Sequence record: PQ671644.1
Length of the DNA: 64,000 nucleotides
Direction: 5' to 3' (one strand)
Source: Escherichia phage DCP80
Below the pieces are notes generated by a model. That model made no database searches. It was not told the origin of the DNA and saw only the letters and a list, made by a program, of their open reading frames with translations. Below are positions 1 through 63,377 of the stretch, piece by piece. Numbering within the stretch: the stretch's first letter is position 1; each line of letters begins with the position of its first letter. Made by a program: the position numbers and the translations under genes.

Positions 1-173
1 GCACAAATGATTTCGGTTACATAATCATAGCCGTCTGCACTTGATATTGATTTAACTTCAAACCAACCGCCATTTTCTTGGATGATGTCGACCATACTAG
101 CATTCGATGAACTAATATCAATGAAAGATTTAATACGATGTGGATTGAACTCATATTTTTTGCCGATTTCCAT
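1..173 (-). CDS. hypothetical protein, N-terminal part only (gene runs off the window start)
   Basis: Minus-strand ATG at 171-173 preceded by GAGGAA RBS; open frame to position 1 (MEIGKKYEFNPHRIKSF...). Lies downstream of gene 32 in transcription, where T4 has small frd-side ORFs. Confidence 0.45.
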   Translation of the reverse strand, partial: MEIGKKYEFNPHRIKSFIDISSSNASMVDIIQENGGWFEVKSISSADGYDYVTEIIC

Positions 174-211
174 TTTTATTTCCTCAGTTGTTATCAGTAG
201 TTGATGGAACC

Positions 212-241
212 ATTATGCCTTAGCTCAAGGGACTTGTACAC
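212..241 (-). promoter_or_regulatory. T4-type early promoter (-35 GTGTAC, 18-nt spacer, -10 CATAAT)
   Basis: Minus strand reads GTGTAC-18nt-CATAAT followed by conserved CATCAACTACTGA leader and GAGGA RBS; same architecture recurs at more than 12 sites in the window. Confidence 0.5.
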
Positions 242-5388: not shown

Positions 5389-5645
5389 TATGCAACCTTA
5401 TTGAACATCGCCAGTTGATTAGGTTGTACAACCATAATTTCACGACGACCTTTTGCGTTTGACACGTTTAGGTAGATGCCTTTGTTCATGTCTGTTTCTT
5501 TATCATATACCGCAATTTTATTGACAGTAAAGATTTTACCACGAATATTTGCAAATGCACATTCAAACGCTTTAGTCAGACCTGCTTCAGCAGCTTGAAG
5601 AGCAGACATTTCATATTGTTGGCCAATTTCAAAAGAAGTAATCAT
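5388..5645 (-). CDS. hypothetical protein (85 aa)
   Basis: ATG at 5645 with GAGGA RBS inside the conserved leader; track ORF starts further upstream at 5693 within the promoter region. Confidence 0.5.
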   Translation of the reverse strand: MITSFEIGQQYEMSALQAAEAGLTKAFECAFANIRGKIFTVNKIAVYDKETDMNKGIYLNVSNAKGRREIMVVQPNQLAMFNKVA

Positions 5646-5676
5646 TTTGTTGTCCTCATCAGTAGTTGATGAGATG

Positions 5677-5706
5677 ATTATGTCTCTTTCCATTGACCTT
5701 GTACAC
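5677..5706 (-). promoter_or_regulatory. T4-type early promoter
   Basis: Minus strand GTGTAC-18nt-CATAAT followed by CATCAACTACTGATGAGGA. Confidence 0.5.
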
Positions 5707-8246: not shown

Positions 8247-8990
8247 TTAACCTCTAATCAGTTTAAAAATTGACGCGTTCAAAGGTAGACCTTTTTTCAG
8301 TTTAAGGCGGTCAATGAATGACAACTTATCTAAACGCTCCAGACCTTGAATAATTTTATCATACATATCGTAACGCGTTTCAGCGTCAGATGATTTCATT
8401 TTCAGACGCCAGTCAGGACCACCCATAACCATTTTCAGCCCGCGTTGACTAGTTCCGATGGAAGCCATTTGTCCATGGATACGAGCCTTGACTGCAATCA
8501 CAGAAGGGGTGGTATCTTTAGCGCCACTTTTATAAAGCTCTTTTAAATGTTTTTGACGCTTCTTGATTCCACGTTCGGTATCTTTAATATTTTTAACAAT
8601 TTTGCGAATTTTATAATAGTCAGCAGGAGTTACTTTAAAACTATTGGGCATCTTAGAACCGCCATTAATACGCACCGCCAAACGAGTCTGCGCACGTTTA
8701 AGTTCATCAAGAGATAAATCAGCACGTAAACCGTTGTACTTAGTTTTGACAGGGATAACATTGCCTTCAATATAACCTATATCATTGTTAAAGCGTTCAA
8801 AGGAAACTTTATCTTGAGTTGAATTTTCATCAAAACGTTCACCAGAATACGCACAGAATTCTTGTTTCAAAAGATTGGCGATATACTTACTAGACAGATT
8901 GAAATCCTTGTTACGACGTTTTGCAGACGTTTTGGTATGCTCGCGACGTTTGTAAACTTTCAATTCAAACTCTTCTTTTGACATATTCAT
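8247..8990 (-). CDS. hypothetical protein (247 aa) at the srd position
   Basis: ORF with own early promoter; conserved N-terminal block (AKRR.KDFNL, CAYSGE, ERFNNDIGYI.GNVIPV) and C-terminus shared with the diverged copy at 50196..50942. Confidence 0.55.
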   Translation of the reverse strand: MNMSKEEFELKVYKRREHTKTSAKRRNKDFNLSSKYIANLLKQEFCAYSGERFDENSTQDKVSFERFNNDIGYIEGNVIPVKTKYNGLRADLSLDELKRAQTRLAVRINGGSKMPNSFKVTPADYYKIRKIVKNIKDTERGIKKRQKHLKELYKSGAKDTTPSVIAVKARIHGQMASIGTSQRGLKMVMGGPDWRLKMKSSDAETRYDMYDKIIQGLERLDKLSFIDRLKLKKGLPLNASIFKLIRG

Positions 8991-9036
8991 GATATTTTTC
9001 TCATCTTACGGACGATTGAAAACTCAGTATGGATTC

Positions 9037-9065
9037 ATTATACACTATACATCTTTTATGTACAC
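9037..9065 (-). promoter_or_regulatory. T4-type early promoter
   Basis: Minus strand GTGTAC-17nt-TATAAT followed by GATTCATACTGAGTT leader. Confidence 0.5.
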
Positions 9066-10621: not shown

Positions 10622-10915
10622 TTATTCACCTGTAACCCATTGAACAATCTTGCTGTTGTCAAATGAAGCATCGCAATACAGAACATAGTTATACTGCATA
10701 ACATCACCAGAAGTCAATTGGTCAGATACTTCTTTAACCATATCAGGACGGTCACGTTTAGTAATATTCATGATGTCAGCATAAATCTGATGTTCAACAT
10801 CAGCCTGGTCAGCAGTCATGGACCACTCGCAAAGGTCTTTATCAAGTCCAGCAGTAACTGGAGCTGTGCCACATGATGCTACGGTAAGAATTGCTGCGAT
10901 TAATAACTTTTTCAT
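10622..10915 (-). CDS. sp: spackle periplasmic protein (Sp)
   Basis: 97 aa (as T4 Sp) with signal peptide MKKLLIAAILTVASC and DKDLCEWSMTADQ, DIMNI.KRDRP, VMQYNYVLYCD motifs. Confidence 0.85.
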   Translation of the reverse strand: MKKLLIAAILTVASCGTAPVTAGLDKDLCEWSMTADQADVEHQIYADIMNITKRDRPDMVKEVSDQLTSGDVMQYNYVLYCDASFDNSKIVQWVTGE

Positions 10916-10943
10916 TTCAATCTCCTCAGTAGTTGATAGGGAT

Positions 10944-10973
10944 AATATACTGCATTATCCCTATGTTGTACAC
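10944..10973 (-). promoter_or_regulatory. T4-type early promoter
   Basis: Minus strand GTGTAC-18nt-GATAAT, then CTATCAACTACTGAGGAG leader. Confidence 0.45.
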
Positions 10974-11177: not shown

Positions 11178-11495
11178 TTAGATTTCCTCACAAAACGCCC
11201 AGGCGGCGTGATAAACTGTTGCACCTTTAGTGTCATTTAAACAAACCACGTCAACAGGTGCAATCACACGATAAAGACGGGGTTCTCCTCCATATGAGCG
11301 AGCTGCTCTTCCTGCATAGATACGCGCCAAACCAATATCTTCAGTAAAAAACACACGCCCTAAATTTTTCTTACGCCCAACTTCTGACAGAACACCAGTT
11401 GCATCAGGAGGACAAAGCATATTTTGGATTCCAGCATTAGAGCTTGAGCCATGATAATAAACTTTGTATTCTGCCTTGCAATCAATGGTTTTCAT
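11178..11495 (-). CDS. hypothetical protein (105 aa) with H-G-S / Y / E pattern
   Basis: Stop abuts the dmd start (co-transcribed); GGAG RBS; contains VYYHGSSS, RVFFTED, RLYRV segments loosely reminiscent of H-Y-E-type NAD-binding folds (speculative). Confidence 0.5.
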   Translation of the reverse strand: MKTIDCKAEYKVYYHGSSSNAGIQNMLCPPDATGVLSEVGRKKNLGRVFFTEDIGLARIYAGRAARSYGGEPRLYRVIAPVDVVCLNDTKGATVYHAAWAFCEEI

Positions 11496-11530
11496 TTTAT
11501 TCTCCAGTAGTTGATAGGGTCATTATAACA

Positions 11531-11558
11531 TAAGAAAAAGGGGCTTACAGCCCCTTTG
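11531..11558 (-). terminator. hairpin terminator after the 100-aa gene
   Basis: GGGGC-TTACA-GCCCC hairpin followed by U-run on the minus strand. Confidence 0.5.
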
Positions 11559-11563
11559 TTCAC

Positions 11564-11866
11564 TTACGCCAACTCATAGTTGTGCATAGTCAGACAACGA
11601 ATTTTCCCAGTAGTTGGGTGCATAACAGTCACACTAATTGTGTAATCATCACACACGTTAACAAAAGGTTCGGCGATAACATATACTGCCCCACCTGCCA
11701 ACAGGTACTCACGAAGAGAGCTGCGAACAGATGAAGGTTGAACATCGCTTTTGAGCTTTATTAATTTACCAGTTTGAATGCCTGATGCGATAAGAGCAGC
11801 ACAGTTTTCATCACGGCGAGCGAACTGACCAAAATAGTAACGGTTCATATCGGTTTGATTAAACAT
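11564..11866 (-). CDS. hypothetical protein (100 aa)
   Basis: ORF with early promoter upstream and terminator downstream; no family recognised. Confidence 0.5.
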   Translation of the reverse strand: MFNQTDMNRYYFGQFARRDENCAALIASGIQTGKLIKLKSDVQPSSVRSSLREYLLAGGAVYVIAEPFVNVCDDYTISVTVMHPTTGKIRCLTMHNYELA

Positions 11867-11915
11867 ATGGTTTTCCTTTTAACAGTTGGTTTATTGTGTA
11901 ACTCAGTATGGAATC

Positions 11916-11945
11916 ATTATGTCCTAAGACAAGGGGCTTGTACAC
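11916..11945 (-). promoter_or_regulatory. T4-type early promoter
   Basis: Minus strand GTGTAC-18nt-CATAAT then GATTCCATACTGAGTTAC leader. Confidence 0.5.
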
Positions 11946-12193
11946 TATTTTAATTCATTAATTAAATGAAAATCTTGTGCATTGAAAGTAATGAAAAAAT
12001 AATCATTCCCTTCAACTGAAGCATGACAGGCAACACTACACCAGCGCCTTGCTCTGTTCAAGGAGCAATCCAAAATTTTAAAAGGCTTCAGACCAACAAT
12101 GGCAGCTGTTCTTTTATTATGCTCACAAATATCAGCATACTTTTGGAGAGCTTCTTCAGATTTGAACTGGTAATGCACATTAACTAATAACAT
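11945..12193 (-). CDS. hypothetical protein (82 aa)
   Basis: ORF with GAGGA RBS and own early promoter between gene 41 and dmd. Confidence 0.5.
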   Translation of the reverse strand: MLLVNVHYQFKSEEALQKYADICEHNKRTAAIVGLKPFKILDCSLNRARRWCSVACHASVEGNDYFFITFNAQDFHLINELK

Positions 12194-12224
12194 TTTATTA
12201 TCCTCATCAGTAGTTGATGGGATA

Positions 12225-12254
12225 ATAGTACACCCTTTTTATGGTGATGTAAAC
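12225..12254 (-). promoter_or_regulatory. T4-type early promoter (GTTTAC / TACTAT)
   Basis: Minus strand GTTTAC-18nt-TACTAT then CATCAACTACTGATGAGGA leader. Confidence 0.4.
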
Positions 12255-12261
12255 CTCTAAA

Positions 12262-12286
12262 TGAAAAAGACCCGAAGGTCTTTAGA
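12262..12286 (-). terminator. terminator after gene 41
   Basis: AAGACC-CGAA-GGTCTT hairpin with U-run on the minus strand just past the gene 41 stop. Confidence 0.5.
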
Positions 12287-29796: not shown

Positions 29797-29826
29797 GTGT
29801 ACAACCAGATGGTCATAAGACATAAT
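29797..29826 (+). promoter_or_regulatory. T4-type early promoter
   Basis: GTGTAC-18nt-CATAAT then GATTCCATACTGAGTTACC leader and GGAG RBS. Confidence 0.55.
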
Positions 29827-29867
29827 GATTCCATACTGAGTTACCAAATAAACAAACGGAGAATAAA

Positions 29868-30074
29868 ATGTTAGAATTAATCAAAGCTGCTGGTGAAAAA
29901 GGTCTGATGGTTAACACTCGTGACCCTGAGCAACGTCAAGCATTTGGTGAGTTAAAAGCCAAAGGTCTGGTTAAAGCATCCCTTGGTATTGGTAATGCTT
30001 TGCGTGTGACTTTGACCCCTGCAGGTAAAGCAATGTTCTTCCCTAAACCATTACCAAAACGTCGTCGCAAGTGA
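29868..30074 (+). CDS. hypothetical protein (68 aa), basic C-terminal tail
   Basis: ORF with GGAG RBS; ends KPLPKRRRK. Confidence 0.5.
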   Translation: MLELIKAAGEKGLMVNTRDPEQRQAFGELKAKGLVKASLGIGNALRVTLTPAGKAMFFPKPLPKRRRK

Positions 30075-30385: not shown

Positions 30386-30415
30386 GTGTACATAGTATGG
30401 GGATAGACGTATAAT
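30386..30415 (+). promoter_or_regulatory. T4-type early promoter
   Basis: GTGTAC-18nt-TATAAT then GTTCCCATACTGAGTTACC leader. Confidence 0.55.
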
Positions 30416-30451
30416 GTTCCCATACTGAGTTACCAAATACTGGAGAATAAA

Positions 30452-30976
30452 ATGGACGCAAAATCAATCTTTAATCTGATTAATTACAATAATGGTAATT
30501 TTAAATCAGAAGCGCAAAGCAAGTTCTTTAATGATGTTGCTTGTGCAGGTGAGATTACAGTATCAGGTGGTCAGACTTATAAAAACGCCTGGAACTGGAT
30601 TGTGACTGTTGATTCAGTTGGTATTGTTGATGTGTATAAAAACACCAACAAAAACCGCTCTTTGTTCTGGTCAAGAGAGACTAATGCAGAATATCAAGCG
30701 ACAAGAGCGAAGAAAAATATGCCTACTGAATCTGATGTACAAAACATCAAATCAGATATCCAATATTATGATGGTCTGATTGCTGAACAACAAGCGGTGC
30801 TTGATAAGTTCAATGAAATCAAGGCGTGTAAAGAGATTCCTGAATTCATGAGGGAATCAGTTAATGAACAATACAATCTCACTTCAGAGCGTATTGAAAC
30901 CTATACCAAACAAAGAGCAGAGCGCCAGGTACTCCTTCAGAAGTTTGAAGAGCGTTTAAAGACGGTTCTCGCATAA
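30452..30976 (+). CDS. hypothetical protein (174 aa)
   Basis: ORF with GGAG RBS; no family recognised. Confidence 0.55.
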   Translation: MDAKSIFNLINYNNGNFKSEAQSKFFNDVACAGEITVSGGQTYKNAWNWIVTVDSVGIVDVYKNTNKNRSLFWSRETNAEYQATRAKKNMPTESDVQNIKSDIQYYDGLIAEQQAVLDKFNEIKACKEIPEFMRESVNEQYNLTSERIETYTKQRAERQVLLQKFEERLKTVLA

Positions 30977-37310: not shown

Positions 37311-37592
37311 TCATACCATACCATTTAAATGAACTTCTACCCGGCGCTTGATGAGGTCTCTGAAGTTAACATTGTTTTCTTGAAGTTTCAACCAATTACC
37401 ATTTTTATCTTTAGTGTGAGTAGAATAATTACCATTCCACCAGAAATCAGTGTCATATGCTAAGTTTTCATATTTTTTAACTAGTTTGTTCAGAGCATTA
37501 CCATTAACACCATTTGGGTATTTGTTGACCAATGCAATAACTTCAATTTCCAGATTTTTAAAGGTGTTCAGAAGGAAAGTTGATTTGTTCAT
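37311..37592 (-). CDS. hypothetical protein (93 aa), early gene antisense to the late capsid operon
   Basis: ORF with GGAG RBS and own early promoter between genes 23 and 24 (segD position in T4, but no GIY-YIG motif). Confidence 0.5.
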   Translation of the reverse strand: MNKSTFLLNTFKNLEIEVIALVNKYPNGVNGNALNKLVKKYENLAYDTDFWWNGNYSTHTKDKNGNWLKLQENNVNFRDLIKRRVEVHLNGMV

Positions 37593-37629
37593 TTTTAAAC
37601 TCCATTGTTTGGTAACTCAGTATGGAATC

Positions 37630-37659
37630 ATTATGTCTTATCTTAATCTGGTTGTAAAC
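37630..37659 (-). promoter_or_regulatory. T4-type early promoter
   Basis: Minus strand GTTTAC-18nt-CATAAT then GATTCCATACTGAGTTACC leader. Confidence 0.5.
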
Positions 37660-41600: not shown

Positions 41601-41810
41601 AATGCGTAAAGTTCCAGTAATAGTTACATCGCCATCAACTTGTCCACCTTTTGCAAAGCCCAAATCAATAATCTGTCCCTGGTCGGACTTGGTAAAAATA
41701 GTGCGGTCACGCAAGTTAATAGCCAGTTCGCCTTCATCTAACTGAGCTGCAGTAGGCTTGGCTCCTGGTGTTTTACTTCTTTTAAATTGTATCGATTTTA
41801 AAGTAGCCAT
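38637..41810 (-). CDS. 37: long tail fiber distal subunit gp37, T4 type (His-x-His C-terminal tip)
   Basis: 1057 aa; matches T4 gp37 from MATLK.IQFKRSK to the [48 protein letters not shown]-terminus. Confidence 0.95.
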
Positions 41811-41818
41811 AATGCCTC

Positions 41819-42023
41819 TTAATAATATCCAAAATCTTCAGATGTACCTCTAAGAACAACCTGGTCAATACGAGGAACGTGTTCGTTCAATGTTCCTGGG
41901 TTCCTAGATATGAAATTCGGGGCTGAAAGAACACCAGCCATAGATTGTATGTTACTATTATTTATTTGGACCTGTTTTGCGTTATCCACATCACTTAATC
42001 CAACTTGTGCTTTTGTCGGGGTA
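41819..42023 (-). CDS. 36: tail fiber protein gp36, C-terminal fragment
   Basis: Stop-free frame from the N-run to a stop 8 nt upstream of the gene 37 start; assignment by position. Confidence 0.6.
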
Positions 42024-50000: not shown

Positions 50001-50119
50001 GACTATAAATTATGGAATCTTTCCGTTCTTTCTTACTGAAGTATTCTGGGTTAACAAAAGGCCAAAGACCTTAGAACCATTATACACAGTAAAAATAAAA
50101 GCGTTAAAGGCAAAAAGTA

Positions 50120-50148
50120 GTGTACATAAAAGATGAATAGTATATAAT
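50120..50148 (+). promoter_or_regulatory. T4-type early promoter (second copy of 9037..9065)
   Basis: GTGTAC-17nt-TATAAT then GATTCCGTACTGAGTT leader. Confidence 0.5.
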
Positions 50149-50195
50149 GATTCCGTACTGAGTTATTCAATCGTCCGTAAGATGAGAAAAATATC

Positions 50196-50942
50196 ATGAC
50201 TTTATCAAAAACCAAAACGCTGAAAGTTAAACGTCGTCTGGAACACACTCAAGCTTCCGCTAAACGTCGCGGTAAGGACTTTAACCTGGATTTTGATTAT
50301 CTGGTTAACATTCTTGACCAAAAAGTTTGTGCTTATTCTGGTGAGACATTTAATAACTCTATTGAAGGTGAGAAGTTATCATTAGAGCGTTTTAACAATG
50401 ATATTGGTTATATCAAGGGTAATGTTATTCCTGTTAAAAAGAAATACAATACCATGCGTTCTGATTGGACCCTGGATGAGCTTAAACAACGCCGTGATGA
50501 TGTTGCTGTAAAAATTGCTCGCCCTTCTGCCAAGAAGATTGATAAGTTAAATCTGACTGCAGAGAAATGGGAACAGATTAAAAAGTCATATACTCATATC
50601 AAGAACATCCAGCATAAACGTGATAATCGCGTTAAGCATTATGCTCAAATGAGTAAATCAGAGCAGTCCAAAGAAAACCAATTAAAAATGGTTGCTCTGA
50701 AGGCTCGCATTGATGGTTCCCGTGTTGCGGAAGGTCATGAGCTTACTAAATTGAACGTTTTGCTCAAAGGCAATGACTGGAAAGTTACCAAGAAATTAAC
50801 TGATGCTGAAACGCTTTTTGATTGCTATGATAAAATCATTCAAGGTCTTGAGCGTTTTGAGAAGATTGGTTTTATTGGTAAATTAAAACTGAAACGTGGT
50901 CTGCCTTTGAACGCGTCAATTTTTAAACTGATTAGAGGTTAA
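50196..50942 (+). CDS. hypothetical protein (248 aa) at the srd position, diverged copy
   Basis: About 55% identical to 8247..8990 with identical last ~25 aa; flanks near-identical. Confidence 0.55.
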   Translation: MTLSKTKTLKVKRRLEHTQASAKRRGKDFNLDFDYLVNILDQKVCAYSGETFNNSIEGEKLSLERFNNDIGYIKGNVIPVKKKYNTMRSDWTLDELKQRRDDVAVKIARPSAKKIDKLNLTAEKWEQIKKSYTHIKNIQHKRDNRVKHYAQMSKSEQSKENQLKMVALKARIDGSRVAEGHELTKLNVLLKGNDWKVTKKLTDAETLFDCYDKIIQGLERFEKIGFIGKLKLKRGLPLNASIFKLIRG

Positions 50943-50943
50943 T

Positions 50944-51243
50944 GTGATGTACTACGCATATGTGCTAGTCTACAAAGATAAAGATGGTTTTGAACATCCA
51001 TTGGAGTATGATGGAAAGGTGACCTTATACACCACAAAAGTGGGCGCAGAATATGAACTTGCCAACTATTCATATACTACAAAACGCTATTTAAGTATGG
51101 GACGTATTGAAACACGGTATATTCCCAGAAAATGGTGGTTTGATAAGCGTGAAACAAAAACAGTTTTTCCTACTGAAGAACGTGCCCGCGAACTGAAATT
51201 AATTTTAGATACTTTATATGTTAAGCGAGTAAAATTGGCATGA
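50944..51243 (+). CDS. hypothetical protein (99 aa; dda.1 position), second copy
   Basis: 93% identical to 7946..8245. Confidence 0.5.
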   Translation: MMYYAYVLVYKDKDGFEHPLEYDGKVTLYTTKVGAEYELANYSYTTKRYLSMGRIETRYIPRKWWFDKRETKTVFPTEERARELKLILDTLYVKRVKLA

Positions 51244-52568
51244 TTAAATTTGAAGACTTGAACACAGGACAAAAAGAAGCTTTTGATTATATCACTGAAG
51301 CTATTCAGCGACGTTCGGGGGAATGTATCACTCTGAATGGCCCAGCTGGCACAGGTAAGACCACTCTGACAAAATTTGTCATTGACCACTTAGTGCGTAA
51401 TGGAGTTATGGGAATTGTGCTTGCTGCACCAACTCACCAGGCGAAAAAAGTTTTATCTAAATTGTCTGGTCAAACGGCGAATACAATCCATAGTATTCTG
51501 AAGATTAACCCGACCACATATGAAGACCAAAACGTTTTTGAACAGCGCGAAATGCCTGACATGTCAAAATGCAATGTTCTGGTTTGTGATGAAGCAAGTA
51601 TGTATGACGGGGCTCTGTTTAAGATTATTCTTAACTCTGTTCCTGAATGGTGTACTATTCTTGGGATTGGTGATATGCACCAGCTGCAACCAGTTGACCC
51701 AGGAAGTACACAACAAAAGATAAGCCCATTCTTTACGCATCCTAAGTTCAAACAGATTCATCTGACTGAGGTCATGCGAAGCAATGCTCCTATCATTGAA
51801 GTGGCGACAGAAATTCGTAATGGTGGCTGGTTCCGTGACTGTATGTATGATGGTCATGGTGTGCAGGGTTTTACCTCACAAACCGCTTTAAAGGATTTCA
51901 TGATAAACTATTTCGGTATTGTAAAAGATGCTGATATGTTGATGGAAAACCGGATGTATGCGTACACGAATAAATCAGTTGAAAAACTGAACAATATCAT
52001 TCGCCGTAAGCTCTATGAAACAGATAAAGCATTTTTACCGTATGAAGTCCTGGTTATGCAAGAGCCACACATGAAAGAGCTGGAATTTGAAGGCAAGAAA
52101 TTCAGCGAAACCATTTTTAATAATGGTCAGTTGGTTCGCATCAAGGATTGCAAATACACTTCCACAATTCTCCGTTGTAAAGGCGAATCGCACCAGTTGG
52201 TGATTAATTACTGGGACCTGGAAGTTGAGTCAATTGATGAAGATGAAGAATATCAGGTTGACCGCATCAAAGTTTTACCAGAAGACCAGCAACCAAAATT
52301 CCAGGCATACCTGGCTAAAGTTGCTGACACATACAAACAGATGAAAGCCGCTGGTAAACGTCCAGAGTGGAAAGACTTCTGGAAAGCTCGCCGGACCTTC
52401 TTGAAAGTTCGTGCTCTTCCGGTCAGTACAATCCATAAGGCACAGGGTGTTTCAGTGGACAAAGCATTCATCTATACTCCATGCATCCATATGGCCGAAG
52501 CTTCATTAGCGAGCCAGTTGGCTTATGTAGGAATCACACGAGCGAGGTACGACGCATATTATGTATAA
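51240..52568 (+). CDS. dda: Dda DNA helicase, second copy
   Basis: Differs from 6621..7949 by a single residue (V to I). Confidence 0.92.
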   Translation: MIKFEDLNTGQKEAFDYITEAIQRRSGECITLNGPAGTGKTTLTKFVIDHLVRNGVMGIVLAAPTHQAKKVLSKLSGQTANTIHSILKINPTTYEDQNVFEQREMPDMSKCNVLVCDEASMYDGALFKIILNSVPEWCTILGIGDMHQLQPVDPGSTQQKISPFFTHPKFKQIHLTEVMRSNAPIIEVATEIRNGGWFRDCMYDGHGVQGFTSQTALKDFMINYFGIVKDADMLMENRMYAYTNKSVEKLNNIIRRKLYETDKAFLPYEVLVMQEPHMKELEFEGKKFSETIFNNGQLVRIKDCKYTSTILRCKGESHQLVINYWDLEVESIDEDEEYQVDRIKVLPEDQQPKFQAYLAKVADTYKQMKAAGKRPEWKDFWKARRTFLKVRALPVSTIHKAQGVSVDKAFIYTPCIHMAEASLASQLAYVGITRARYDAYYV

Positions 52569-52800
52569 GGTACATAAAGAAGATTTAGATAATCTCATCT
52601 ATGGTATTCAGGACGCGGTTGAATTTTTCGAAGATAATCCGACTATCGTCGTGCAGGGTAATTACGTTTTACTGGAACTGAATCTTATTCGGAAACGTAT
52701 GGCCGCGATTGAATATTTTAACAATGAAGAGCCAGGGATTTTTATCTCCGACTATGTTGCTGGTGAAATTCAGAAATTAAAAGAGATGTGCGATGATTGA
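52561..52800 (+). CDS. hypothetical protein (79 aa), second copy
   Basis: Matches 6389..6628. Confidence 0.5.
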   Translation: MYKVHKEDLDNLIYGIQDAVEFFEDNPTIVVQGNYVLLELNLIRKRMAAIEYFNNEEPGIFISDYVAGEIQKLKEMCDD

Positions 52801-53476
52801 TGCTATTATTGACTTTGAAACTCTGGGAAACGGCTCGAAGGGAGCCGTTATTGACCTGGCCCTGATTACATTCGAATCTGACCCTGCTATTGTGGAATCG
52901 TTCGAAACCCTGGTTAATCGCGGCAAACGCATTAAGTTCAGCCTTGAATATCAAAAAGGTAAGCGGCTGTTCGACACAACAACTATGGGTTGGTGGAAAA
53001 AGCAATCAGCCGAAGCACGTGTTAACCTGGTCCCTTCTGCGCAAGATGTTGATACTCTGACTGGTATCCAACAAGCAATTGACTATCTGAATGACAATGG
53101 AATTAACAAATACGAAAGCCTTATGTGGTGCCGTGGAATGTCTTTTGACTTCCCGTTGTTTGTCGACCTTATCCGCGACCTGCAGCGCAATGAGGGGATT
53201 CCTGAGCGCGAATTGAATACCTATAACCTGGAGCCGGTTGTATTCTGGAACCAGCGAGATATCAGAACAGCAATCGAAGCCCTGTCACTCGTCCGTAAAA
53301 TGTGTGAAACTCCATTACCAAAGGGGACTTTAGATGGATTCGTGGCGCACGATTCGGTACATGACTGTGCGAAAGATATTTTGATGCTTAAGTACGCCCA
53401 GCGCTATGCCCTTGGTTTAGATGAAGTTCCTTCCGAAGAAGATGCAGACCCATTATCTTTGCCGAAAAAACGATAA
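52793..53476 (+). CDS. dexA: exonuclease A (DexA), second copy
   Basis: 227 aa, a few substitutions relative to 5713..6396. Confidence 0.75.
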   Translation: MIDAIIDFETLGNGSKGAVIDLALITFESDPAIVESFETLVNRGKRIKFSLEYQKGKRLFDTTTMGWWKKQSAEARVNLVPSAQDVDTLTGIQQAIDYLNDNGINKYESLMWCRGMSFDFPLFVDLIRDLQRNEGIPERELNTYNLEPVVFWNQRDIRTAIEALSLVRKMCETPLPKGTLDGFVAHDSVHDCAKDILMLKYAQRYALGLDEVPSEEDADPLSLPKKR

Positions 53477-53482
53477 AAAGTA

Positions 53483-53512
53483 GTGTACAAGGCCAATGGA
53501 AAGAGACATAAT
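53483..53512 (+). promoter_or_regulatory. T4-type early promoter (second copy of 5677..5706)
   Basis: GTGTAC-18nt-CATAAT then CATCAACTACTGATGAGGA. Confidence 0.5.
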
Positions 53513-53543
53513 CATCTCATCAACTACTGATGAGGACAACAAA

Positions 53544-53696
53544 ATGATTACTTCTTTTGAAATTGGCCAACAATATGAAATGTCCGCTCTTCAAGCTGCT
53601 GAAGCAGGTCTGACTAAAGCGTTTGAATGTGCATTTGCAAATATTCGTGGTAAAATCTTTACTGTCAATAAAATTGCGGTATATGATAAAGAAACA
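53544..53696 (+). CDS. hypothetical protein, N-terminal fragment (copy of 5388..5645)
   Basis: ATG 53544 after GAGGA RBS; truncated by N-run. Confidence 0.45.
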
Positions 53697-57140: not shown

Positions 57141-57170
57141 CTTTTGCCTGACGTTCAGCTTCTTCTTGTG

Positions 57171-57365
57171 TCATGATTTATCTCCGTAGATATCACGCAT
57201 CAGTTTAAGCACAGCTCGTTCGGTCTTCTTTTCCTGCATATCTTTGACGCTGGCGGCGGCCCATTCTTCAGCTTCGCGCTGCATTTCTTCCTCGGCTCTG
57301 GCTACCCAGGAATCATCAATCCCTGGAGTAACCAACCAATCTTTAAGCCAACTTGTAATTCTCAT
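57171..57365 (-). CDS. hypothetical protein (64 aa), copy of 28382..28576
   Basis: Identical translation. Confidence 0.45.
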   Translation of the reverse strand: MRITSWLKDWLVTPGIDDSWVARAEEEMQREAEEWAAASVKDMQEKKTERAVLKLMRDIYGDKS

Positions 57366-57722
57366 TTAATCACACGAGCTGGAAGACGAATCGCAGCTTC
57401 CTGAATCATAGGAGGAATAAGACGAATCACCAGTCCACGAACTGACGGCAGCAGCGACTACAATCGGAGTCATATCAATATGCGGTGTAGTATCGACATG
57501 GCTTGTAGAACGTCTTGAATCCAGATGCTCTTTTAACTTTTTCGAATTCAATGGCAATGCACCTGGTCCGACATTACCGGCTTTTTCTGGTCGGCGACGA
57601 ACTTCTTCCATCATACCATCGCCCATGTAAACATATTCTCTTAGCTTGACATCTGGTAGGCTAACAGGAACCACGCCCTCGTTTGGTTTGGTCTTGAATA
57701 AATTCTTGAGCCAACTAATCAT
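57366..57722 (-). CDS. hypothetical protein (118 aa), copy of 28022..28381
   Basis: Near-identical translation (a few substitutions). Confidence 0.5.
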   Translation of the reverse strand: MISWLKNLFKTKPNEGVVPVSLPDVKLREYVYMGDGMMEEVRRRPEKAGNVGPGALPLNSKKLKEHLDSRRSTSHVDTTPHIDMTPIVVAAAVSSWTGDSSYSSYDSGSCDSSSSSCD

Positions 57723-57916
57723 AGGAAACCTCGTTTAAATTCAACTTGACCATCATCATAACGGATTTCAATATTGAATTCTAAAGAATCATCATCGTGC
57801 ATCATGAACGAGTGCACGACAACCTCATCAAACACACCCAGACCATACTTAAAATGTACATCATGGGCAATAACTTCGTCTAAAGTTTTGTTCGGTTTAA
57901 TCCAACGGTTTAACAT
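57719..57916 (-). CDS. hypothetical protein (65 aa), copy of 27828..28025
   Basis: Identical translation. Confidence 0.45.
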   Translation of the reverse strand: MLNRWIKPNKTLDEVIAHDVHFKYGLGVFDEVVVHSFMMHDDDSLEFNIEIRYDDGQVEFKRGFL

Positions 57917-57964
57917 AGTATTCTCCTCTGTAGTTGAGATAATTATACCATCTCTATTAAAAGC

Positions 57965-57987
57965 AAAAAGGGAACCCGAAGGTTCCC
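57965..57987 (-). terminator. rho-independent terminator after soc (second copy)
   Basis: GGGAACC-UUCG-GGUUCCC with U-run on the minus strand. Confidence 0.65.
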
Positions 57988-57992
57988 TATAA

Positions 57993-58226
57993 TTAAACTA
58001 CTGGGGTAGGCGTAAACATCGCCGCGTTCTTAGTTCGCCAATCGGCTGCATCAGTCACTACAGTAGTATAGGCTGCAACGGCCGAAGGGAAAGTCTGATA
58101 ATGAGCATCCGCAATACGGTGCTCGTTTGAATAGATTTCAAACGGAACAGATACTTCAACACCTTTAACTTCTTTACCTTCACCAGCTGGATGCGTAAAG
58201 GTTTTGATATTAACGAAACCACCCAT
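57993..58226 (-). CDS. soc: small outer capsid protein Soc, second copy
   Basis: Identical translation to 27517..27750. Confidence 0.8.
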   Translation of the reverse strand: MGGFVNIKTFTHPAGEGKEVKGVEVSVPFEIYSNEHRIADAHYQTFPSAVAAYTTVVTDAADWRTKNAAMFTPTPVV

Positions 58227-58267
58227 AATAAACTCCTTTGTTGTTTAATTACAGGTGTATTTATAAC

Positions 58268-58549
58268 TTACAATTTGGCGGCTTGGACTGCTTTATTGGC
58301 TTCAGTCATTTTAGCTAGATTTTCAGCAGTAGGATTGGCAATGTATTCGGCTGTAGCTTTAGCAAAAACATTATGAGTTTCGATTACATTTTTAGCATTT
58401 TCAATATTCATATCAATTTCTTGTTTAGATAAATTTTTTAGTTGATTGGCTAAGAGTTCTACAAAGATTTCAACATTAGCGTTTTCAATTATATCATTAA
58501 TATGCTTCTTACGAGCTTTCTTAAGCTGACGTTTATTTAAACGAGGCAT
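58268..58549 (-). CDS. hypothetical protein (93 aa), copy of 27194..27475
   Basis: Near-identical translation. Confidence 0.5.
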   Translation of the reverse strand: MPRLNKRQLKKARKKHINDIIENANVEIFVELLANQLKNLSKQEIDMNIENAKNVIETHNVFAKATAEYIANPTAENLAKMTEANKAVQAAKL

Positions 58550-59067
58550 TAATAACCTCGGTCCTGACGAGCAAAGTTCTCGGCATTTTTCAGGTAATAC
58601 AGTTTAAAGATTTCTTCTGCTGTCAGACCAAGACCATGGAACATGTTCAGAACGAAATGGAGAATATCAATCATTTCGAATTTAATTTCGAGCTGGTCTT
58701 CAGGAGAGAGTTCGTCAATACGACGGTTACGGAATTCGCCATGTTGAGCTTTCCAAGGCTTCCAACAACTTGATGCAGCTTTCTCGCCATTAGACATACC
58801 ACCGAGAGAAGTCAGAAGTTCACGGAATTCGTCGTCAACATAATCTTTCTGGTTGCGAAGCCATGCAACAACATCGCCTGCGGTTGCCAATTCATCTGGA
58901 TGTGCGTTATATTCTGGTTTTTCTGTAGCCAGACGAACCTGCAAAGATTTCTGCATATCAAGCATAATCTGCAGAGGGTCATCATTGCCTTTTAGGACAT
59001 CATTATACGCATCTTGCGCTTTATCAACACCAGCAATCAGTTGAGAACACTCGTTAAAATGAGCCAT
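58549..59067 (-). CDS. 56: dCTP pyrophosphatase gp56, second copy
   Basis: Near-identical to 26676..27194 (a few substitutions). Confidence 0.92.
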   Translation of the reverse strand: MAHFNECSQLIAGVDKAQDAYNDVLKGNDDPLQIMLDMQKSLQVRLATEKPEYNAHPDELATAGDVVAWLRNQKDYVDDEFRELLTSLGGMSNGEKAASSCWKPWKAQHGEFRNRRIDELSPEDQLEIKFEMIDILHFVLNMFHGLGLTAEEIFKLYYLKNAENFARQDRGY

Positions 59068-59105
59068 TATATTTTTCCTTATCAATTCATGTTGTTTGTA
59101 TGTTA

Positions 59106-59129
59106 ATTATATCATATTGGTTTAAAGCA
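59106..59129 (-). promoter_or_regulatory. middle promoter (MotA box + TATAAT) for gene 56, second copy
   Basis: Reverse complement of 26614..26637. Confidence 0.5.
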
Positions 59130-59151
59130 TAAATACAAGAAAGGAGGATGT

Positions 59152-59349
59152 ATGCTCAAACTATCTAGTCTAATTCAAGCCATCAAAGGCAGTCGTAAGC
59201 GAACGATTCTGGTCCTTTCGATACTCTGTTTTGTTCTACTCTGGAATTTCATTGTTGTCCCTATTGCATTGGCACATGGTGTTATATTGCCAGTCGTCGC
59301 GCTCGAATCAGTTGTAGATGTTTCACTAGCATTAATCGGCCTTATATAG
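59152..59349 (+). CDS. small membrane protein (65 aa), second copy
   Basis: One substitution relative to 26394..26591. Confidence 0.45.
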   Translation: MLKLSSLIQAIKGSRKRTILVLSILCFVLLWNFIVVPIALAHGVILPVVALESVVDVSLALIGLI

Positions 59350-59457
59350 GTGGAACTTACTGGTTGTGCCTATCGCTGCAACACAAGGGGTGCACTTACC
59401 CCAGGTCACAATGGAACATATTCATTCCATCATCGGTTACTTTACCGGAATCCCTTC

Positions 59458-60486
59458 CTAAACTTTTGCGTACTTCGAAAGTCGCATTCTCGCCATCAAT
59501 CCTTGAGCAACGTTATCGGCCATATATGATTCGATTTGTTCAGGGGTTGCCCCTTCTGATTTAACCATCTCATTTATGTCTTTCGTATGCCATGGTGCAT
59601 TGTCCCAGAACATAACAGCTTCGCCCGCTTCAACGAGCTTCTTCATACGTTTAATCGTATCTTTATGTCGCGGTTCATGGTCCATCACCCATACTCTGGT
59701 TTCTGGATAAGGAACAGCTTCCAATGCCAATGTGCCACCGGTTATCGCAATGCTGTTAGGGATAAACAAACTATCAATTGGACCTTCCATTACCCATACG
59801 CGTTTACGCTCATCAATCTTGTCTACGCCATAGACTTTGGAAGCTTCTGGGTGAGCTTTGATTGTGATATATTTTTGTGGTGCATCTTTGCGAAGAGCTC
59901 GTCCTTGGAAAGATTCGATTTCTTTTTTGCCGTTGAAGATAGGAATAACCAAGCGTGGTTCATTCGTTTCATTCTTATACGTCCCAGGATTGACGGAGTT
60001 AACTAATGCAGGCCATTTGTTTGTAAACCATAACCGGTTCCAAACATTGCTAGGAATACACCGACTTTTTACATACTTAATTATCGGATGTGCTTCTGGT
60101 AAAGTATCGAGTCTTTCACAAAAAGCAAGCTGCTCGATAACCGGAGTTTTTTCTGGTTCTTTCGGAGTTTCTGCAACTTCATTGCGCTGTCTGCCAAAGG
60201 CATTCTCCTTATACTTCTCAACCATATATTCCCGGTGTAAATCCGGCTCAAACTCTTTTATGTATTTGCTTATATGCGTGGAGTAGTCACAGTTAAAACA
60301 TTTCACGTAAACCGCGCCATCAGACGGATTGGTATACGCCCAGAATCGAGCTTTATGTGAATCTTTCTGGGAGTCGCCACAAACTTTACATCTGCAGTTT
60401 GCCTTAAATGTGCTCCCGGTGACTTCTCTATAACGTGGTTGATACGATAAAGCTCTGACTGCAAATTCTTTATCAATATATGACAT
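59458..60486 (-). CDS. 61: DNA primase gp61, second copy
   Basis: About 97% identical to 25257..26285. Confidence 0.93.
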   Translation of the reverse strand: MSYIDKEFAVRALSYQPRYREVTGSTFKANCRCKVCGDSQKDSHKARFWAYTNPSDGAVYVKCFNCDYSTHISKYIKEFEPDLHREYMVEKYKENAFGRQRNEVAETPKEPEKTPVIEQLAFCERLDTLPEAHPIIKYVKSRCIPSNVWNRLWFTNKWPALVNSVNPGTYKNETNEPRLVIPIFNGKKEIESFQGRALRKDAPQKYITIKAHPEASKVYGVDKIDERKRVWVMEGPIDSLFIPNSIAITGGTLALEAVPYPETRVWVMDHEPRHKDTIKRMKKLVEAGEAVMFWDNAPWHTKDINEMVKSEGATPEQIESYMADNVAQGLMARMRLSKYAKV

Positions 60487-60514
60487 AGTTTCCTCATTTC
60501 AATGGCCCCGAAGG

Positions 60515-60561: not shown

Positions 60562-60691
60562 GCGGACGAACGTTTGGAACGAGCTATCAAACAAGAAGCT
60601 ATTGCCAAACGAGCATTGATGAAGTCTCTTTATCTCTGCCTTCATGTCATTAATGCGCTGGAAGCTATTCGGTTTTATGTTTCATTTGCGT
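60562..60691 (+). CDS. nrdB: ribonucleotide reductase beta subunit NrdB, exon 1 (3' part only)
   Basis: Frame ...LYLCLHVINALEAIRFYVSFA aligns with the conserved R2 helix (E. coli ..LSLFLCGLMAEAIRFYVSFAC..); exon ends at U60691. Confidence 0.8.
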
Positions 60692-61000
60692 AAATTGCGC
60701 CTTTAAGTGGTAACACTTATCGAAAACTCCTTTAATTGCTGGAAAATCCGGAAACGGAAAACTAGCAGCCAAGGTTTTGCTTGCGCCTTTAATTAGTATC
60801 ATATTATAAATATGATTATACTTTTAAGAGGATGCACAATTGCAAAACAAGGTTCAACGACTAGTCTTCGGACGTAGGGCCAAGCGGCTCGAAATGGGGA
60901 GAATCCTTCTGGGATTGTGATATAGTCTGGTCTGCATGGTAACATGCAGCAGTTCATAAGAGAACGGGATAAGAAATAGCGAGCTTATTCGAACATAACG
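60692..61000 (+). ncRNA. group I self-splicing intron in nrdB (309 nt, no homing-endonuclease ORF)
   Basis: Interrupts the conserved FYVSFA|C..MEGNAK region exactly where a Cys codon is reconstituted (U + GU); exon U before 5' splice site, intron ends in G; P1-like pairing UUGCGU/GCGC; catalytic-core-like segments (UCAACGACUAGUC ... AUAGUCUGG); T4 nrdB is known to carry a group I intron. Confidence 0.7.
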
Positions 61001-63082: not shown

Positions 63083-63112
63083 GTGTACAAGCCCCTTCTT
63101 TCTATACATAAT
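63083..63112 (+). promoter_or_regulatory. T4-type early promoter
   Basis: GTGTAC-18nt-CATAAT then GGTTCCATCAACTACTGATGAGGA; -35 lies in the loop of the post-63 hairpin. Confidence 0.5.
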
Positions 63113-63143
63113 GGTTCCATCAACTACTGATGAGGACTAAAAC

Positions 63144-63377
63144 ATGTTAAACTTAATTACAAATGAAAGAGTTACACAGGCATATGGTGACAGAAATGAT
63201 GGAATCTATGTCTACAAGGGAGACCGCCGGATTGGTTTCATTACTGACCTGAAGGCCAAATTGTTAAAAGAATTGAAAGCTCAAACAGGTGATTCTGGGT
63301 TTAGAGCAAGAGCCAAAAAGAAAGATGAACGCCTGGGTGCCAACTCTTTTGGTCCTAGAGGTTACAACCGCTACTAA
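63144..63377 (+). CDS. hypothetical protein (77 aa), N-terminal paralog of the following gene
   Basis: ATG after GAGGA RBS; residues 6-42 about 65% identical to the N-terminus of 63391..63894. Confidence 0.5.
   Translation: MLNLITNERVTQAYGDRNDGIYVYKGDRRIGFITDLKAKLLKELKAQTGDSGFRARAKKKDERLGANSFGPRGYNRY

What the first reader, a model, noticed from the sequence alone, without database searches (positions are those of the whole stretch)
53483..53546. Recurrent early promoter and leader cassette in two families, one with a short stem-loop abutting the ribosome-binding site
More than a dozen intergenic sites share -35 G(T/G)(T/G)TAC, an 17-18-nt spacer and -10 (C/T)ATAAT, followed by either CATCAACTACTGATGAGGA (6-bp stem TCATCA/TGATGA ending at the GAGGA RBS) or GATTCCATACTGAGTTACC. 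Sites include 212-241, 5677-5706, 9037-9065, 11916-11945, 29797-29826, 30386-30415 and 63083-63112. Conservation extending from the -10 into the leader suggests a shared post-transcriptional signal in addition to the promoter.
Basis: seen in the sequence. Interest (0 to 1): 0.4.

Follow-up and report, generated by a model that had tools for sequence, protein, structure and literature searches.

The report
T4-type early promoter cassette repeats
This is one of about fourteen copies of the standard early promoter, leader and ribosome-binding-site cassette of a T4-like coliphage; the repeat is real and already known in kind, and the small stem-loop next to the ribosome-binding site looks like a local accident, not a shared signal.

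Summary
The pattern GT(G/T)TAC-N17/18-(C/T)ATAAT occurs 13 times in the window against about 0.2 expected, and both leader motifs recur far above chance. The window is a patchwork of segments from VR7/SP18-like T4-type phages (Gaprivervirus). Two listed site pairs are the same locus from two strains.

The site 53483-53546 lies between dexA and a small genus-specific ORF. It is a T4-type early promoter. The conserved block after the -10 sits a fixed 6 nt from it but 19-45 nt from the ATG, so it is tied to the start site, not the ribosome-binding site. Family A (ATCAACTAC...) also occurs at T4's own early promoters and in 921 phage records. Family B (ATACTGAGTTAC) is nearly genus-specific.

The stem is not a shared feature:
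- A 6-7 bp stem exists only at this locus.
- The 5' arm is invariant whatever the 3' arm is.
- Pairing equals the shuffled control.
- The predicted start (A 53519) lies inside the 5' arm, leaving a 4-bp hairpin of about 0 kcal/mol.
- Leaders are less structured than shuffles.

Terminator, promoter, leader and ribosome-binding site together, plus an ORF present or absent between cassettes, match the published PeSL "mobile regulatory cassettes". Known kind; low interest.

The parts
53474..53476 (+). Stop codon of dexA (227-aa exonuclease A, ORF 52793-53476). No terminator lies between it and the promoter.
   Evidence: ORF list. Mapping to VR7 dexA. The terminator scan finds none here.
53463..53482 (+). 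A-rich, UP-like tract (gaaaaaacgataaaaagta) directly upstream of the -35.
   Evidence: Sequence. A-rich -40..-44 tracts are described for T4-type early promoters (PMC1524935; PMC2988021).
53483..53488 (+). -35 element GTGTAC (T4 convention). Read as TGTACA 53484-53489 against TTGACA, the spacer is 17 nt.
53507..53512 (+). -10 element CATAAT.
53513..53518 (+). Discriminator CATCTC. Other cassettes have g(a/g)ttcc, tatccc or gaccct here.
53519..53530 (+). Predicted start (A 53519) and the conserved initial transcribed block ATCAACTACTGA (family A).
   Evidence: The block starts exactly 6 nt after the -10 in 40 of 42 family members. Identity at +1..+12 is 0.90. The same block occurs at T4 early promoters. 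The start position is inferred, not mapped.
53516..53534 (+). Inverted repeat CTCATCA / TGATGAG with loop ACTAC. The 3' arm covers GAG of the ribosome-binding site.
   Evidence: Fold results. The pair-count test shows no covariation.
53532..53536 (+). Shine-Dalgarno GAGGA, 7 nt before the ATG. It has no GGAG, so it does not fit the RegB consensus.
   Evidence: RegB consensus from PMC3014915.
53544..53696 (+). Start of the VR7ORF013c homologue (phrog_17795, function unknown), cut by the N run at 53697. The true product is probably 85 aa.
   Evidence: The PHROG profile 1-85 aligns to residues 17-101 of the 101-aa reading. Homologues occur only in 33 Gaprivervirus records.
5643..5706 (-). The same dexA-ORF013 cassette from a second strain segment. 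The stem and leader are identical.
63083..63146 (+). Family A cassette upstream of a 77-aa Alc-like ORF. A GGGG..CCCC hairpin plus T-run overlaps the -35. The 5' arm is CCATCA.
12191..12281 (-). Gene 41 terminator (AGACCttcgGGTCTTTTT), then -35 GTTTAC, -10 TACTAT, tatcccATCAACTACTGATGAGGATAATAAAATG, followed by the 82-aa goF-like ORF.
171..241 (-). Family A cassette with upstream terminator. The leader is ATCAACTACTGATAACAACTGAGGAAATAAAAATG.
10913..10973 (-). Family A cassette with -10 TATATT. An 11-bp inverted repeat ATAGGGATAAT/ATTATCCCTAT straddles the -10.
11493..11554 (-). Family A cassette in which the hairpin GGGGCtgtaaGCCCC plus T-run occupies the -35 position. The leader is ATCAACTACTGGAGAATAAAATG.
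   Evidence: The VR7 orthologue is GGGGGTGTACACCCCC.
11864..11945 (-). Family B cassette (gattccATACTGAGTTACA...).
8988..9065 (-). Family B-like cassette upstream of srd (strain 1).
50120..50198 (+). The same srd cassette from strain 2. It has G at the predicted +1.
29797..29870 (+). Family B cassette with an upstream terminator.
30386..30454 (+). Family B cassette. A strong hairpin straddles the -10 (-13.5 kcal/mol).
37590..37659 (-). Family B cassette.

Best explanation
The site is a T4-type early promoter cassette between dexA and a small genus-specific ORF, in a VR7/SP18-like phage.

How it most likely works:
1. Host sigma-70 RNA polymerase binds the A-rich upstream tract, the -35 GTGTAC(A) and the -10 CATAAT.
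2. It starts at the A seven bases after the -10 (53519).
3. This gives a 25-nt, G-poor, essentially unstructured leader with GAGGA 7 nt before the AUG, so the ORF is expressed immediately after infection.

The block conserved after the -10 is the discriminator plus the first ~12 transcribed bases. It belongs to the promoter/start-site module, not to the ribosome-binding site. It is inherited across T-even phages in the family A form. Family B looks like a genus-specific derivative that lacks the TCAAC pentamer.

The whole unit (terminator or hairpin, promoter, leader, SD, ATG) is repeated in front of many small early genes. That gives transcriptional autonomy to each gene. As described for PeSL cassettes, it also gives 50-70 bp of homology at which ORFs can be inserted, lost or swapped.

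The TCATCA/TGATGA stem at this locus most likely arose from a TGA triplet duplication in the T4-type ACTGAGGA sequence, and is not itself the selected feature.

Shown here: the repeats, their anchoring, their distribution, the absence of covariation, and the ORF presence/absence polymorphism.
Inferred: the start site, promoter activity, and the roles of the conserved block.
For: Identity and context:
- The window is 94-99% identical to VR7/SP18-type phages.
- The site lies between dexA and VR7ORF013c.
- T4 has an early-type promoter at the same position after dexA, with leader ATAGCTACTGAGGATAATAAAATG.

Promoter:
- The pattern is enriched more than 60-fold over shuffles, and a generic sigma-70 scan also picks it up.
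- GTTTAC-like -35 elements, A-rich -40s and C at -3..-1 are described for T4-like early promoters (PMC1524935; PMC2988021).

Anchoring:
- The motif starts 6 nt after the -10 in 40 of 42 sites, while its distance to the ATG ranges from 19 to 45 nt.
- ATACTGAGTT follows a -10 at that spacing in 5 of 5 window copies and 11 of 11 VR7 copies.

Block-wise conservation: identity is 0.38-0.44 in the spacer against 0.90-1.00 at +1..+12.

Distribution:
- T4's own promoters carry ATCAACTAC.
- The family A consensus hits 921 phage records.
- Family B is found at 12-14 places per Gaprivervirus genome and hardly anywhere else.

Leader structure: leaders are less structured than shuffles, with mean z +0.59 and 88% of 66 above zero.

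Cassette behaviour:
- Terminator-promoter composites are visible.
- The 82-aa ORF with its cassette is present in 12 of about 33 genomes. In the others, its 70-nt cassette matches a different locus at about 91% identity.
- The PeSL description and crossovers mapped between the -10 and the ATG are in PMC2839356 and PMC4122927.
Against: - No transcript 5' ends are available for this phage. The +1 position rests on the usual 7-nt distance and on alignment with T4-type promoters.
- What the +1..+12 block does mechanistically (start selection, promoter escape, open leader, or factor binding) is not resolved by any test here.
- The dexA-ORF013 locus itself shows no gene-content polymorphism among the 33 genomes, so the recombination role is shown for a sister cassette and not for this one.
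- At this locus the read-through RNA is predicted to fold over the SD and the AUG, which leaves room for a local regulatory role of the stem.
Confidence: 0.82

Rival explanations
1. Transcript-origin switch at this locus. RNA reading through from dexA folds the discriminator/+1 region onto the SD (7 bp) and the -10/discriminator AAUCAU onto AUGAUU, so ORF013 is poorly translated. RNA started at the local promoter lacks both 5' arms and is translated. This is the logic known for T4 genes e, soc, 49 and I-TevI.
For: - There is no terminator between dexA and the promoter.
- The read-through RNA has MFE -10.6 to -11.6 kcal/mol against -0.6 to -2.7 from +1. Its z-score is -3.1 against shuffles of the whole RNA.
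- The SD unpaired probability is 0.78 from +1 and 0.14 in read-through RNA, against 0.52 with a shuffled upstream region (rank 3 of 60).
- The T4 orthologous site also occludes its SD in read-through RNA, using a different 5' arm (-23.7 against 0.0).
- The precedent is described in PMC3014915.
Against: - Over 66 early-promoter sites, read-through SD accessibility equals the shuffled-upstream control (0.43 against 0.40, p = 0.39).
- With upstream regions swapped between sites, this site ranks only 14 of 71.
- There is no covariation.
- The other four TGATGAGG loci have different discriminators, and some have terminators that limit read-through.
- The hairpin is modest: -4.4 kcal/mol for the 6-bp form.
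- All 33 orthologous copies are nearly identical, so they give no test.
Confidence: 0.2
2. One reading: the 6-bp stem-loop next to the ribosome-binding site is present in the early mRNA and is a shared post-transcriptional signal affecting stability or translation.
For: - The isolated 17-nt hairpin folds at -4.4 kcal/mol, and no shuffle does as well.
- The exact 19-mer recurs four times in the window.
Against: - The four copies are three loci, and only one of them has the 6-bp stem.
- The predicted +1 is inside the 5' arm. From +1 the hairpin has MFE 0 and the leader z-score is +0.15.
- Pairing is not above shuffles, and the 5' arm is invariant while the 3' arm varies.
- Most family A leaders (TGGAGA, GGAGG and similar) cannot form it.
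- Leaders as a class avoid structure.
Confidence: 0.06
3. The conserved +1..+12 block (ATCAACTACTGA or ATACTGAGTTAC) is a recognition site for a phage or host factor. It could act on DNA as an operator for the still unexplained shut-off of early promoters, or on the RNA 5' end as a tag for decay or modification.
For: - +1..+12 is conserved as well as or better than the -10 and -35 within families (1.00 against 0.94 in family B).
- Its position relative to the promoter is strict.
- It is retained from T4 to Gaprivervirus.
- The review states that early promoter shut-off is not understood (PMC3014915; PMC2988021).
Against:
- About a third of early-type promoters in VR7 and half in T4 lack either block. 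A general shut-off operator would be expected at all of them.
- The block may simply optimise start-site choice or promoter escape.
Confidence: 0.1
4. The similarity is only a trace of recent duplication or gene conversion of cassettes, with no selection on the leader.
For: - Cassettes at different loci can be about 91% identical over 70 nt.
- Tandem ACTGA-type repeats in some leaders look like recombinational slippage.
- PeSL recombination is documented.
Against: - The spacer between -35 and -10 is close to random (0.38-0.44 identity), while the flanking blocks are 0.8-1.0.
- The same block is kept in T4, a different genus.
Confidence: 0.1

Closest known systems
Bacteriophage T4 early promoters (Pe), with the extended consensus: UP, GTTTAC -35, TGn, -10 and start-site region
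   Same: - -35 of the GTTTAC type (here mostly GTGTAC), a 17/18-nt spacer, a TAnnAT-type -10 and an A-rich upstream tract.
- C-rich positions -3..-1, then A.
- Position in front of early-gene orthologues, including the same dexA-downstream slot as in T4.
- T4's own Pe sites carry ATCAACTAC at +1.
   Different: - G instead of T at the third -35 position.
- -10 is CATAAT/TATAAT, not T4's frequent TACTAT.
- The family B start block ATACTGAGTTAC is almost confined to this genus.
PeSL (promoter-early stem-loop) mobile regulatory cassettes of T4-like phages (Arbiol et al. 2010, PMC2839356; Comeau et al. 2014, PMC4122927)
   Same: - A repeated composite of AT-rich tract, stem-loop or terminator, early promoter, SD and ATG in front of small non-essential ORFs.
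- Stems at variable positions: upstream, over the -35, or across the -10.
- An ORF present or absent between cassettes in close relatives.
   Different: - This genus was not analysed in those papers.
- At the finding's own site the only stem lies downstream of the -10 and has no U-tract, so a terminator role is unlikely.
- No indel is seen at this locus.
RegB/S1 cleavage sites in T4 early ribosome-binding sites (GG*AGRAYARAA)
   Same: Many sister cassettes end in ACTGGAGAATAAAATG, an exact match to the consensus.
   Different: The finding's site has GAGGACAACAA with no GGAG, so it is predicted to escape RegB.
T4 genes e, soc, 49 and I-TevI: a hairpin that sequesters the ribosome-binding site, with a promoter inside its 5' arm
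   Same: The predicted start lies inside the 5' arm of a hairpin that covers part of the SD, and an outer helix covers the AUG. Only read-through RNA could fold it.
   Different: - Those cases use late promoters and much stronger, conserved structures.
- Here the promoter is early and the helix is weak.
- It is not supported by covariation or by a class-wide trend.

Membership tests
T4-type early promoter (Pe) | -35 GTTTAC-like hexamer and -10 TAnnAT-like hexamer, 17-18 nt apart | tested here: met
   GTGTAC-18-CATAAT at 53483-53512. A generic sigma-70 scan also lists it.
T4-type early promoter (Pe) | A-rich UP-like tract upstream of the -35 | tested here: met
   gaaaaaacgataaaaagta lies directly upstream. 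The feature is described in PMC1524935.
T4-type early promoter (Pe) | Correct orientation directly upstream of an early-region gene; conserved position relative to T4 | tested here: met
   The site is in the dexA-motB region. T4 has a Pe-type site in the same slot.
T4-type early promoter (Pe) | Active immediately after infection without phage proteins; start about 7 nt after the -10 | not testable with these tools
   No transcript data are available for this phage. The start at 53519 is inferred.
PeSL cassette | Repeated composite of promoter, stem-loop, SD and ATG in front of small ORFs | tested here: met
   About 14 loci in the window and about 30 in VR7. Stems are visible.
PeSL cassette | Stem-loop acts as a terminator or attenuator of upstream transcription | tested here: inconclusive
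   Several sister cassettes have GC hairpins followed by T-runs. The finding's site has no terminator-like hairpin. The function was not assayed.
PeSL cassette | Association with insertions, deletions or replacements of ORFs between close relatives | tested here: met
   Met for the sister cassette at 12191-12281: the ORF is present in 12 of about 33 genomes, and the cassette is homologous to another locus. Not seen at the dexA-ORF013 locus itself.
PeSL cassette | Recombination between cassettes producing mini-circles | not testable with these tools
   This needs inverse PCR on phage DNA.
RegB/S1 target site | GGAG followed by an A-rich RAYARAA in the translation initiation region | tested here: not met
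   The finding's site reads GAGGACAACAA. The feature is met at sister cassettes with GGAGAATAAAA.
Hairpin sequestering the ribosome-binding site, with an internal promoter (T4 gene e type) | SD and/or AUG paired in long transcripts and free in transcripts from the proximal promoter | tested here: inconclusive
   Predicted SD unpaired probability is 0.14 in read-through RNA, 0.78 from +1 and 0.52 with a shuffled upstream region (rank 3 of 60). There is no class-wide effect and no covariation.
   58.4% of cells are paired against 59.6% in shuffles; 454 of 500 shuffles do at least as well; 2 cells show double changes against 5.3 expected.

The most novel reading that the evidence does not exclude
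The first ~12 transcribed bases (ATCAACTACTGA in T-even phages generally, ATACTGAGTTAC in Gaprivervirus) are held more tightly than the promoter hexamers and at a fixed distance from the -10. They could be a dedicated recognition element. One option is an operator on DNA for the still unexplained rapid shut-off of T4-type early promoters. Another is a 5'-end tag on early mRNAs read by a phage or host factor. Either would go beyond start-site or escape optimisation.
Probability: 0.1. Interest if true: 0.6.

Novelty: new member of a known kind. Interest (0 to 1): 0.2.

Why it matters
It matters mostly for annotation.
- It gives a clean catalogue of early promoter cassettes in a Gaprivervirus-type phage.
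- It shows that the conserved block after the -10 belongs to the promoter and start site and is shared with T4.
- It corrects the likely start of ORF013.
- It warns against reading a local inverted repeat as a regulatory RNA.

If the conserved start block proved to be a factor-binding element, it would bear on the open question of how T4 early promoters are switched off. Nothing here shows that.

Tried and rejected
- Rfam scan of the whole window: no RNA family at any cassette; the only hit is a group I intron elsewhere.
- Covariation test of the stem on 23 leaders: negative.
- Search for diverged orthologues of ORF013, to compare upstream leaders: the protein exists only in 33 near-identical Gaprivervirus records, and the cassette is at least 97.5% identical in all of them, so there is no comparative power.
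- IMG/VR scan for ATCAACTACTGATGAGG: promoter-context copies come only from the VR20/VR25/VR26 genomes. The other hits lie in unrelated sequence with no such promoter upstream.
- General SD occlusion by the cassette's own upstream sequence, tested with two controls: not supported as a class property.
- Literature search for mapped 5' ends of T4 early transcripts carrying ATCAAC, and for the motif itself: nothing usable is held. The Miller 2003 and Desplats 2002 papers are not in the library.
- The idea that the cassette is the N-terminal coding region of a 101-aa ORF013: rejected. The PHROG profile starts at residue 17, and the same leader precedes unrelated genes.

Full report
**What the window is**

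The region around the finding is 96-99% identical to Shigella phage SP18 and to Escherichia phages VR20 and VR7, which are T4-like myoviruses of the genus Gaprivervirus. The window is not one contiguous stretch. It contains 14 runs of N. The segments between them map to scattered places of the VR7 genome in both orientations. Three regions are present twice, as slightly different strain versions. One of these is motB.1-ORF013-dexA-dda-srd, at 4521-9759 on the minus strand and at 50001-53696 on the plus strand. The sites 5677-5706(-) and 53483-53512(+) are therefore one locus seen twice, and so are 9037-9065(-) and 50120-50148(+).

**The observation**

The sequence is as described:
- -35 GTGTAC, 53483-53488
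- 18-nt spacer
- -10 CATAAT, 53507-53512
- CATCTC
- ATCAACTACTGATGAGGA, 53519-53536
- ATG, 53544-53546

The promoter pattern occurs 11 times with an 18-nt spacer and twice with a 17-nt spacer. Shuffles give 0.09 and 0.10. The two leader strings have 5 and 6 matches against 0.02 and 0.01 expected.

Three more cassettes have degenerate hexamers and were missed by the strict pattern. The window therefore holds about 14 distinct loci.

**Where the site sits**

The upstream gene is dexA, whose stop codon is at 53474-53476. The downstream gene is the homologue of VR7ORF013c.

That ORF is annotated as 101 aa. Its first ATG, however, lies inside the promoter spacer. The PHROG family profile (85 positions) aligns to residues 17-101. 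The ATG at 53544, which follows the GAGGA, is therefore the likely start, giving 85 aa. The protein is found only in 33 Gaprivervirus records.

T4 has an early-type promoter in the same slot directly after dexA: GTTTAC-18-TACTAT-aacaccATAGCTACTGAGGATAATAAAATG.

**What is conserved, and what it is anchored to**

I fetched the whole VR7 genome and most of T4 and scanned them with the same pattern.

VR7 has about 30 such sites in front of genes, all in the early-gene orientation. Of these, 12 carry the family A start block (ATCAAC...) and 9-11 carry family B (ATACTGAGTTAC).

T4's own early promoters carry family A at 12 sites, including those upstream of motA, imm.1 and trna.4, for example acaactATCAACTACTGATACGG..GGAGAATAAAATG. 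A 39-nt family A consensus finds 921 phage records across the T-even group. Family B is found at 12-14 places per Gaprivervirus genome and almost nowhere else.

Anchoring:
- The block begins exactly 6 nt after the -10 in 40 of 42 sites.
- Its distance to the ATG ranges from 19 to 39 nt in family A and from 28 to 45 nt in family B.
- Every copy of ATACTGAGTT in the window (5 of 5) and in VR7 (11 of 11) follows a -10 at that spacing.

Mean pairwise identity within each family:

| Region | Identity |
|---|---|
| -35 | 0.92-0.94 |
| 18-nt spacer | 0.38-0.44 |
| -10 | 0.80-0.94 |
| +1..+12 | 0.90-1.00 |
| +13..+24 | about 0.5 |

The information profile shows the same continuation through G(-6), CCC(-3..-1) and AT(+1,+2). 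This agrees with the published note that T4-like early promoters prefer C at -3 to -1 (PMC1524935).

The conserved block is therefore part of the promoter and start-site module. It is old, and it is under selection and not merely recently copied.

**The ribosome-binding end of the cassettes**

Many cassettes end in ACTGGAGAATAAAATG. This matches the consensus for strong RegB/S1 cleavage sites, GGAGRAYARAA (PMC3014915). In that sense a post-transcriptional signal is indeed part of many cassettes. The finding's own site has GAGGA and no GGAG.

**The stem-loop**

Five results argue against it as a shared signal.
1. Most family A leaders continue with TGGAGA, GGAGG, AGGAG or TGAGGAG, which cannot pair with ATCA.
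2. On an ungapped alignment of 23 family A leaders, the 7-pair structure has 58.4% of cells paired against 59.6% in shuffles, and 454 of 500 shuffles do at least as well. The 5' arm never varies, while the 3' arm does.
3. Among the five paralogous loci that do have TGATGAGG, the three bases before +1 are ctc, tcc, cct/ttt, ccc and ccc. Only the dexA-ORF013 locus forms 6-7 bp.
4. The predicted start, the A seven bases after the -10 (53519), lies inside the 5' arm. RNA from that start keeps only AUCA/UGAU. The isolated hairpin has MFE 0, and the leader's z-score is +0.15.
5. Leaders of 66 early-type sites are on average less structured than shuffles, with mean z +0.59 and 88% above zero.

The T4 orthologous site and a sister cassette differ by a TGA triplet (ACTGAGGATAATAAAATG against ACTGATGAGGATAATAAAATG). 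This suggests that a triplet duplication created the stem.

**A local alternative**

There is no terminator between dexA and the promoter, so longer transcripts probably read through the site. In such RNA the 7-bp stem forms over GAG of the SD. An outer 6-bp helix also pairs AAUCAU (the end of the -10 plus the discriminator) with AUGAUU. The MFE is about -11 kcal/mol, against about -0.6 from +1.

The SD unpaired probability is 0.78 from +1 and 0.14 in read-through RNA, against 0.52 when the upstream 36 nt are shuffled (rank 3 of 60). This is the logic known for T4 genes e, soc, 49 and I-TevI (PMC3014915).

Across all 66 sites, however, read-through accessibility equals the shuffled control (0.43 against 0.40, p = 0.39). 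A swap control gives the same answer. I therefore rate this as a possible local effect with confidence about 0.2, and not as a property of the cassette family.

**Comparison with known systems**

The cassettes fit the T4 early promoter class. As composites, they fit the PeSL "mobile regulatory cassettes" described for RB49/phi1, T4/PST and KVP40/nt-1. Those consist of an AT-rich tract, a stem-loop at variable positions, an early promoter, an SD and an ATG, repeated in plastic regions. Recombination crossovers in them were mapped between the -10 and the ATG.

The window shows the same features:
- Terminator hairpins directly upstream of the promoter.
- GGGG..CCCC hairpins with T-runs over the -35.
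- Hairpins across the -10.

After gene 41 the window carries an extra 82-aa goF-like ORF with its own family A cassette. That module is present in 12 of about 33 genomes. In the genomes without it, its 70-nt cassette matches a different locus (upstream of mobD.5) at about 91% identity. This is the pattern expected of cassette-mediated shuffling. The finding's own locus shows no such polymorphism.

**Verdict**

The repeat is real and is an ordinary, already described kind of element, seen here in a genus where it had not been catalogued in the papers I could read. The promoter reading and the two leader families are correct. The stem-loop reading is not supported.

What the conserved first dozen transcribed bases do remains unresolved. 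Start-site or escape optimisation and an open leader are the conservative readings. A factor-binding role is possible but untested.

Interest is low (0.2). Novelty: new member of a known kind.

Noticed in passing
whole window; N runs at 4511, 9760, 15031, 20286, 25005, 29506, 37900, 42024, 46131, 49973, 53697, 57105, 60515, 63923: The window is a patchwork of about 15 segments that map to scattered places of a VR7-like genome in both orientations. Three regions are present twice as slightly different strain versions: 4521-9759 and 50001-53696; 25041-29505 and 57141-60514; 20301-25004 and 37941-42023.
   Followed up: partly
window about 33740/33741: A junction without Ns. Sequence matching VR7 47216-43030 (the nrdC.4/nrdC.5 region) abuts sequence matching VR7 99539-103701 (gp68 to gp23), inside ORF 33041-33784. 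This points to a chimeric join or a misassembly.
   Followed up: no
window 60666-60949 (+): A group I catalytic intron (Rfam RF00028, 74.1 bits, E = 6e-17) lies in the nrdB segment. The VR7 alignment starts only after it, so VR7 seems to lack it there.
   Followed up: no
window 5388-5693 (-) and 53544-53696 (+); VR7 7970-8275: The 101-aa reading of VR7ORF013c starts at an ATG inside the promoter spacer. The PHROG profile (85 positions) aligns to residues 17-101, so the real start is probably the ATG after GAGGA, giving 85 aa. The GenBank start is likely wrong.
   Followed up: partly
early promoter sites of T4, VR7 and the window, e.g. window 30386-30425 (+) and 10965-10934 (-); T4 73939, 133331, 146143; VR7 68184, 165049: About a quarter of early promoters have a strong hairpin across the -10 (-11 to -16.5 kcal/mol). 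Its 5' arm is in the spacer, and its 3' arm is the discriminator plus +1..+4. In 15 of 59 sites the hairpin ranks at 2 or better against swapped spacers, where 3 are expected. Arm sequences differ between sites while staying complementary. PeSL papers mention stems over the -10 for RB49/phi1. For T4/PST they describe stems upstream of the promoter.
   Followed up: partly
window 11554-11540 (-) compared with VR7 20762-20747: Orthologous cassettes keep a GC hairpin plus T-run where the -35 should be. VR7 has the perfect palindrome GGGGGTGTACACCCCC, which contains GTGTAC. The window strain has GGGGCtgtaaGCCCC, which keeps the hairpin but spoils the -35.
   Followed up: no
window 11945-12193 (-): An 82-aa ORF of the goF (mRNA metabolism modulator) PHROG family is present after gene 41 in only 12 of about 33 Gaprivervirus genomes. 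It is a second goF-like gene besides the canonical goF near motB.
   Followed up: partly
T4 NC_000866 133300-133313 (locus L008 14300-14313): The T4 record notes that this 14-nt stretch is the inverted complement of the earlier published sequence and that this 'corrects' early promoter Pe133295. It lies in the loop region of one of the strongest hairpins that straddle the -10 (-16.3 kcal/mol). The cause could be an old sequencing artefact or a flip between the inverted repeats.
   Followed up: no
window 26609-26637 (+) and 59106-59134 (-): A different promoter-like site, ATTTAT-17-TATAAT, followed by taacatacaaac, lies in the gene 56/61 region and is present in both strain copies. It is not of the A or B type and may belong to another promoter class.
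   Followed up: no
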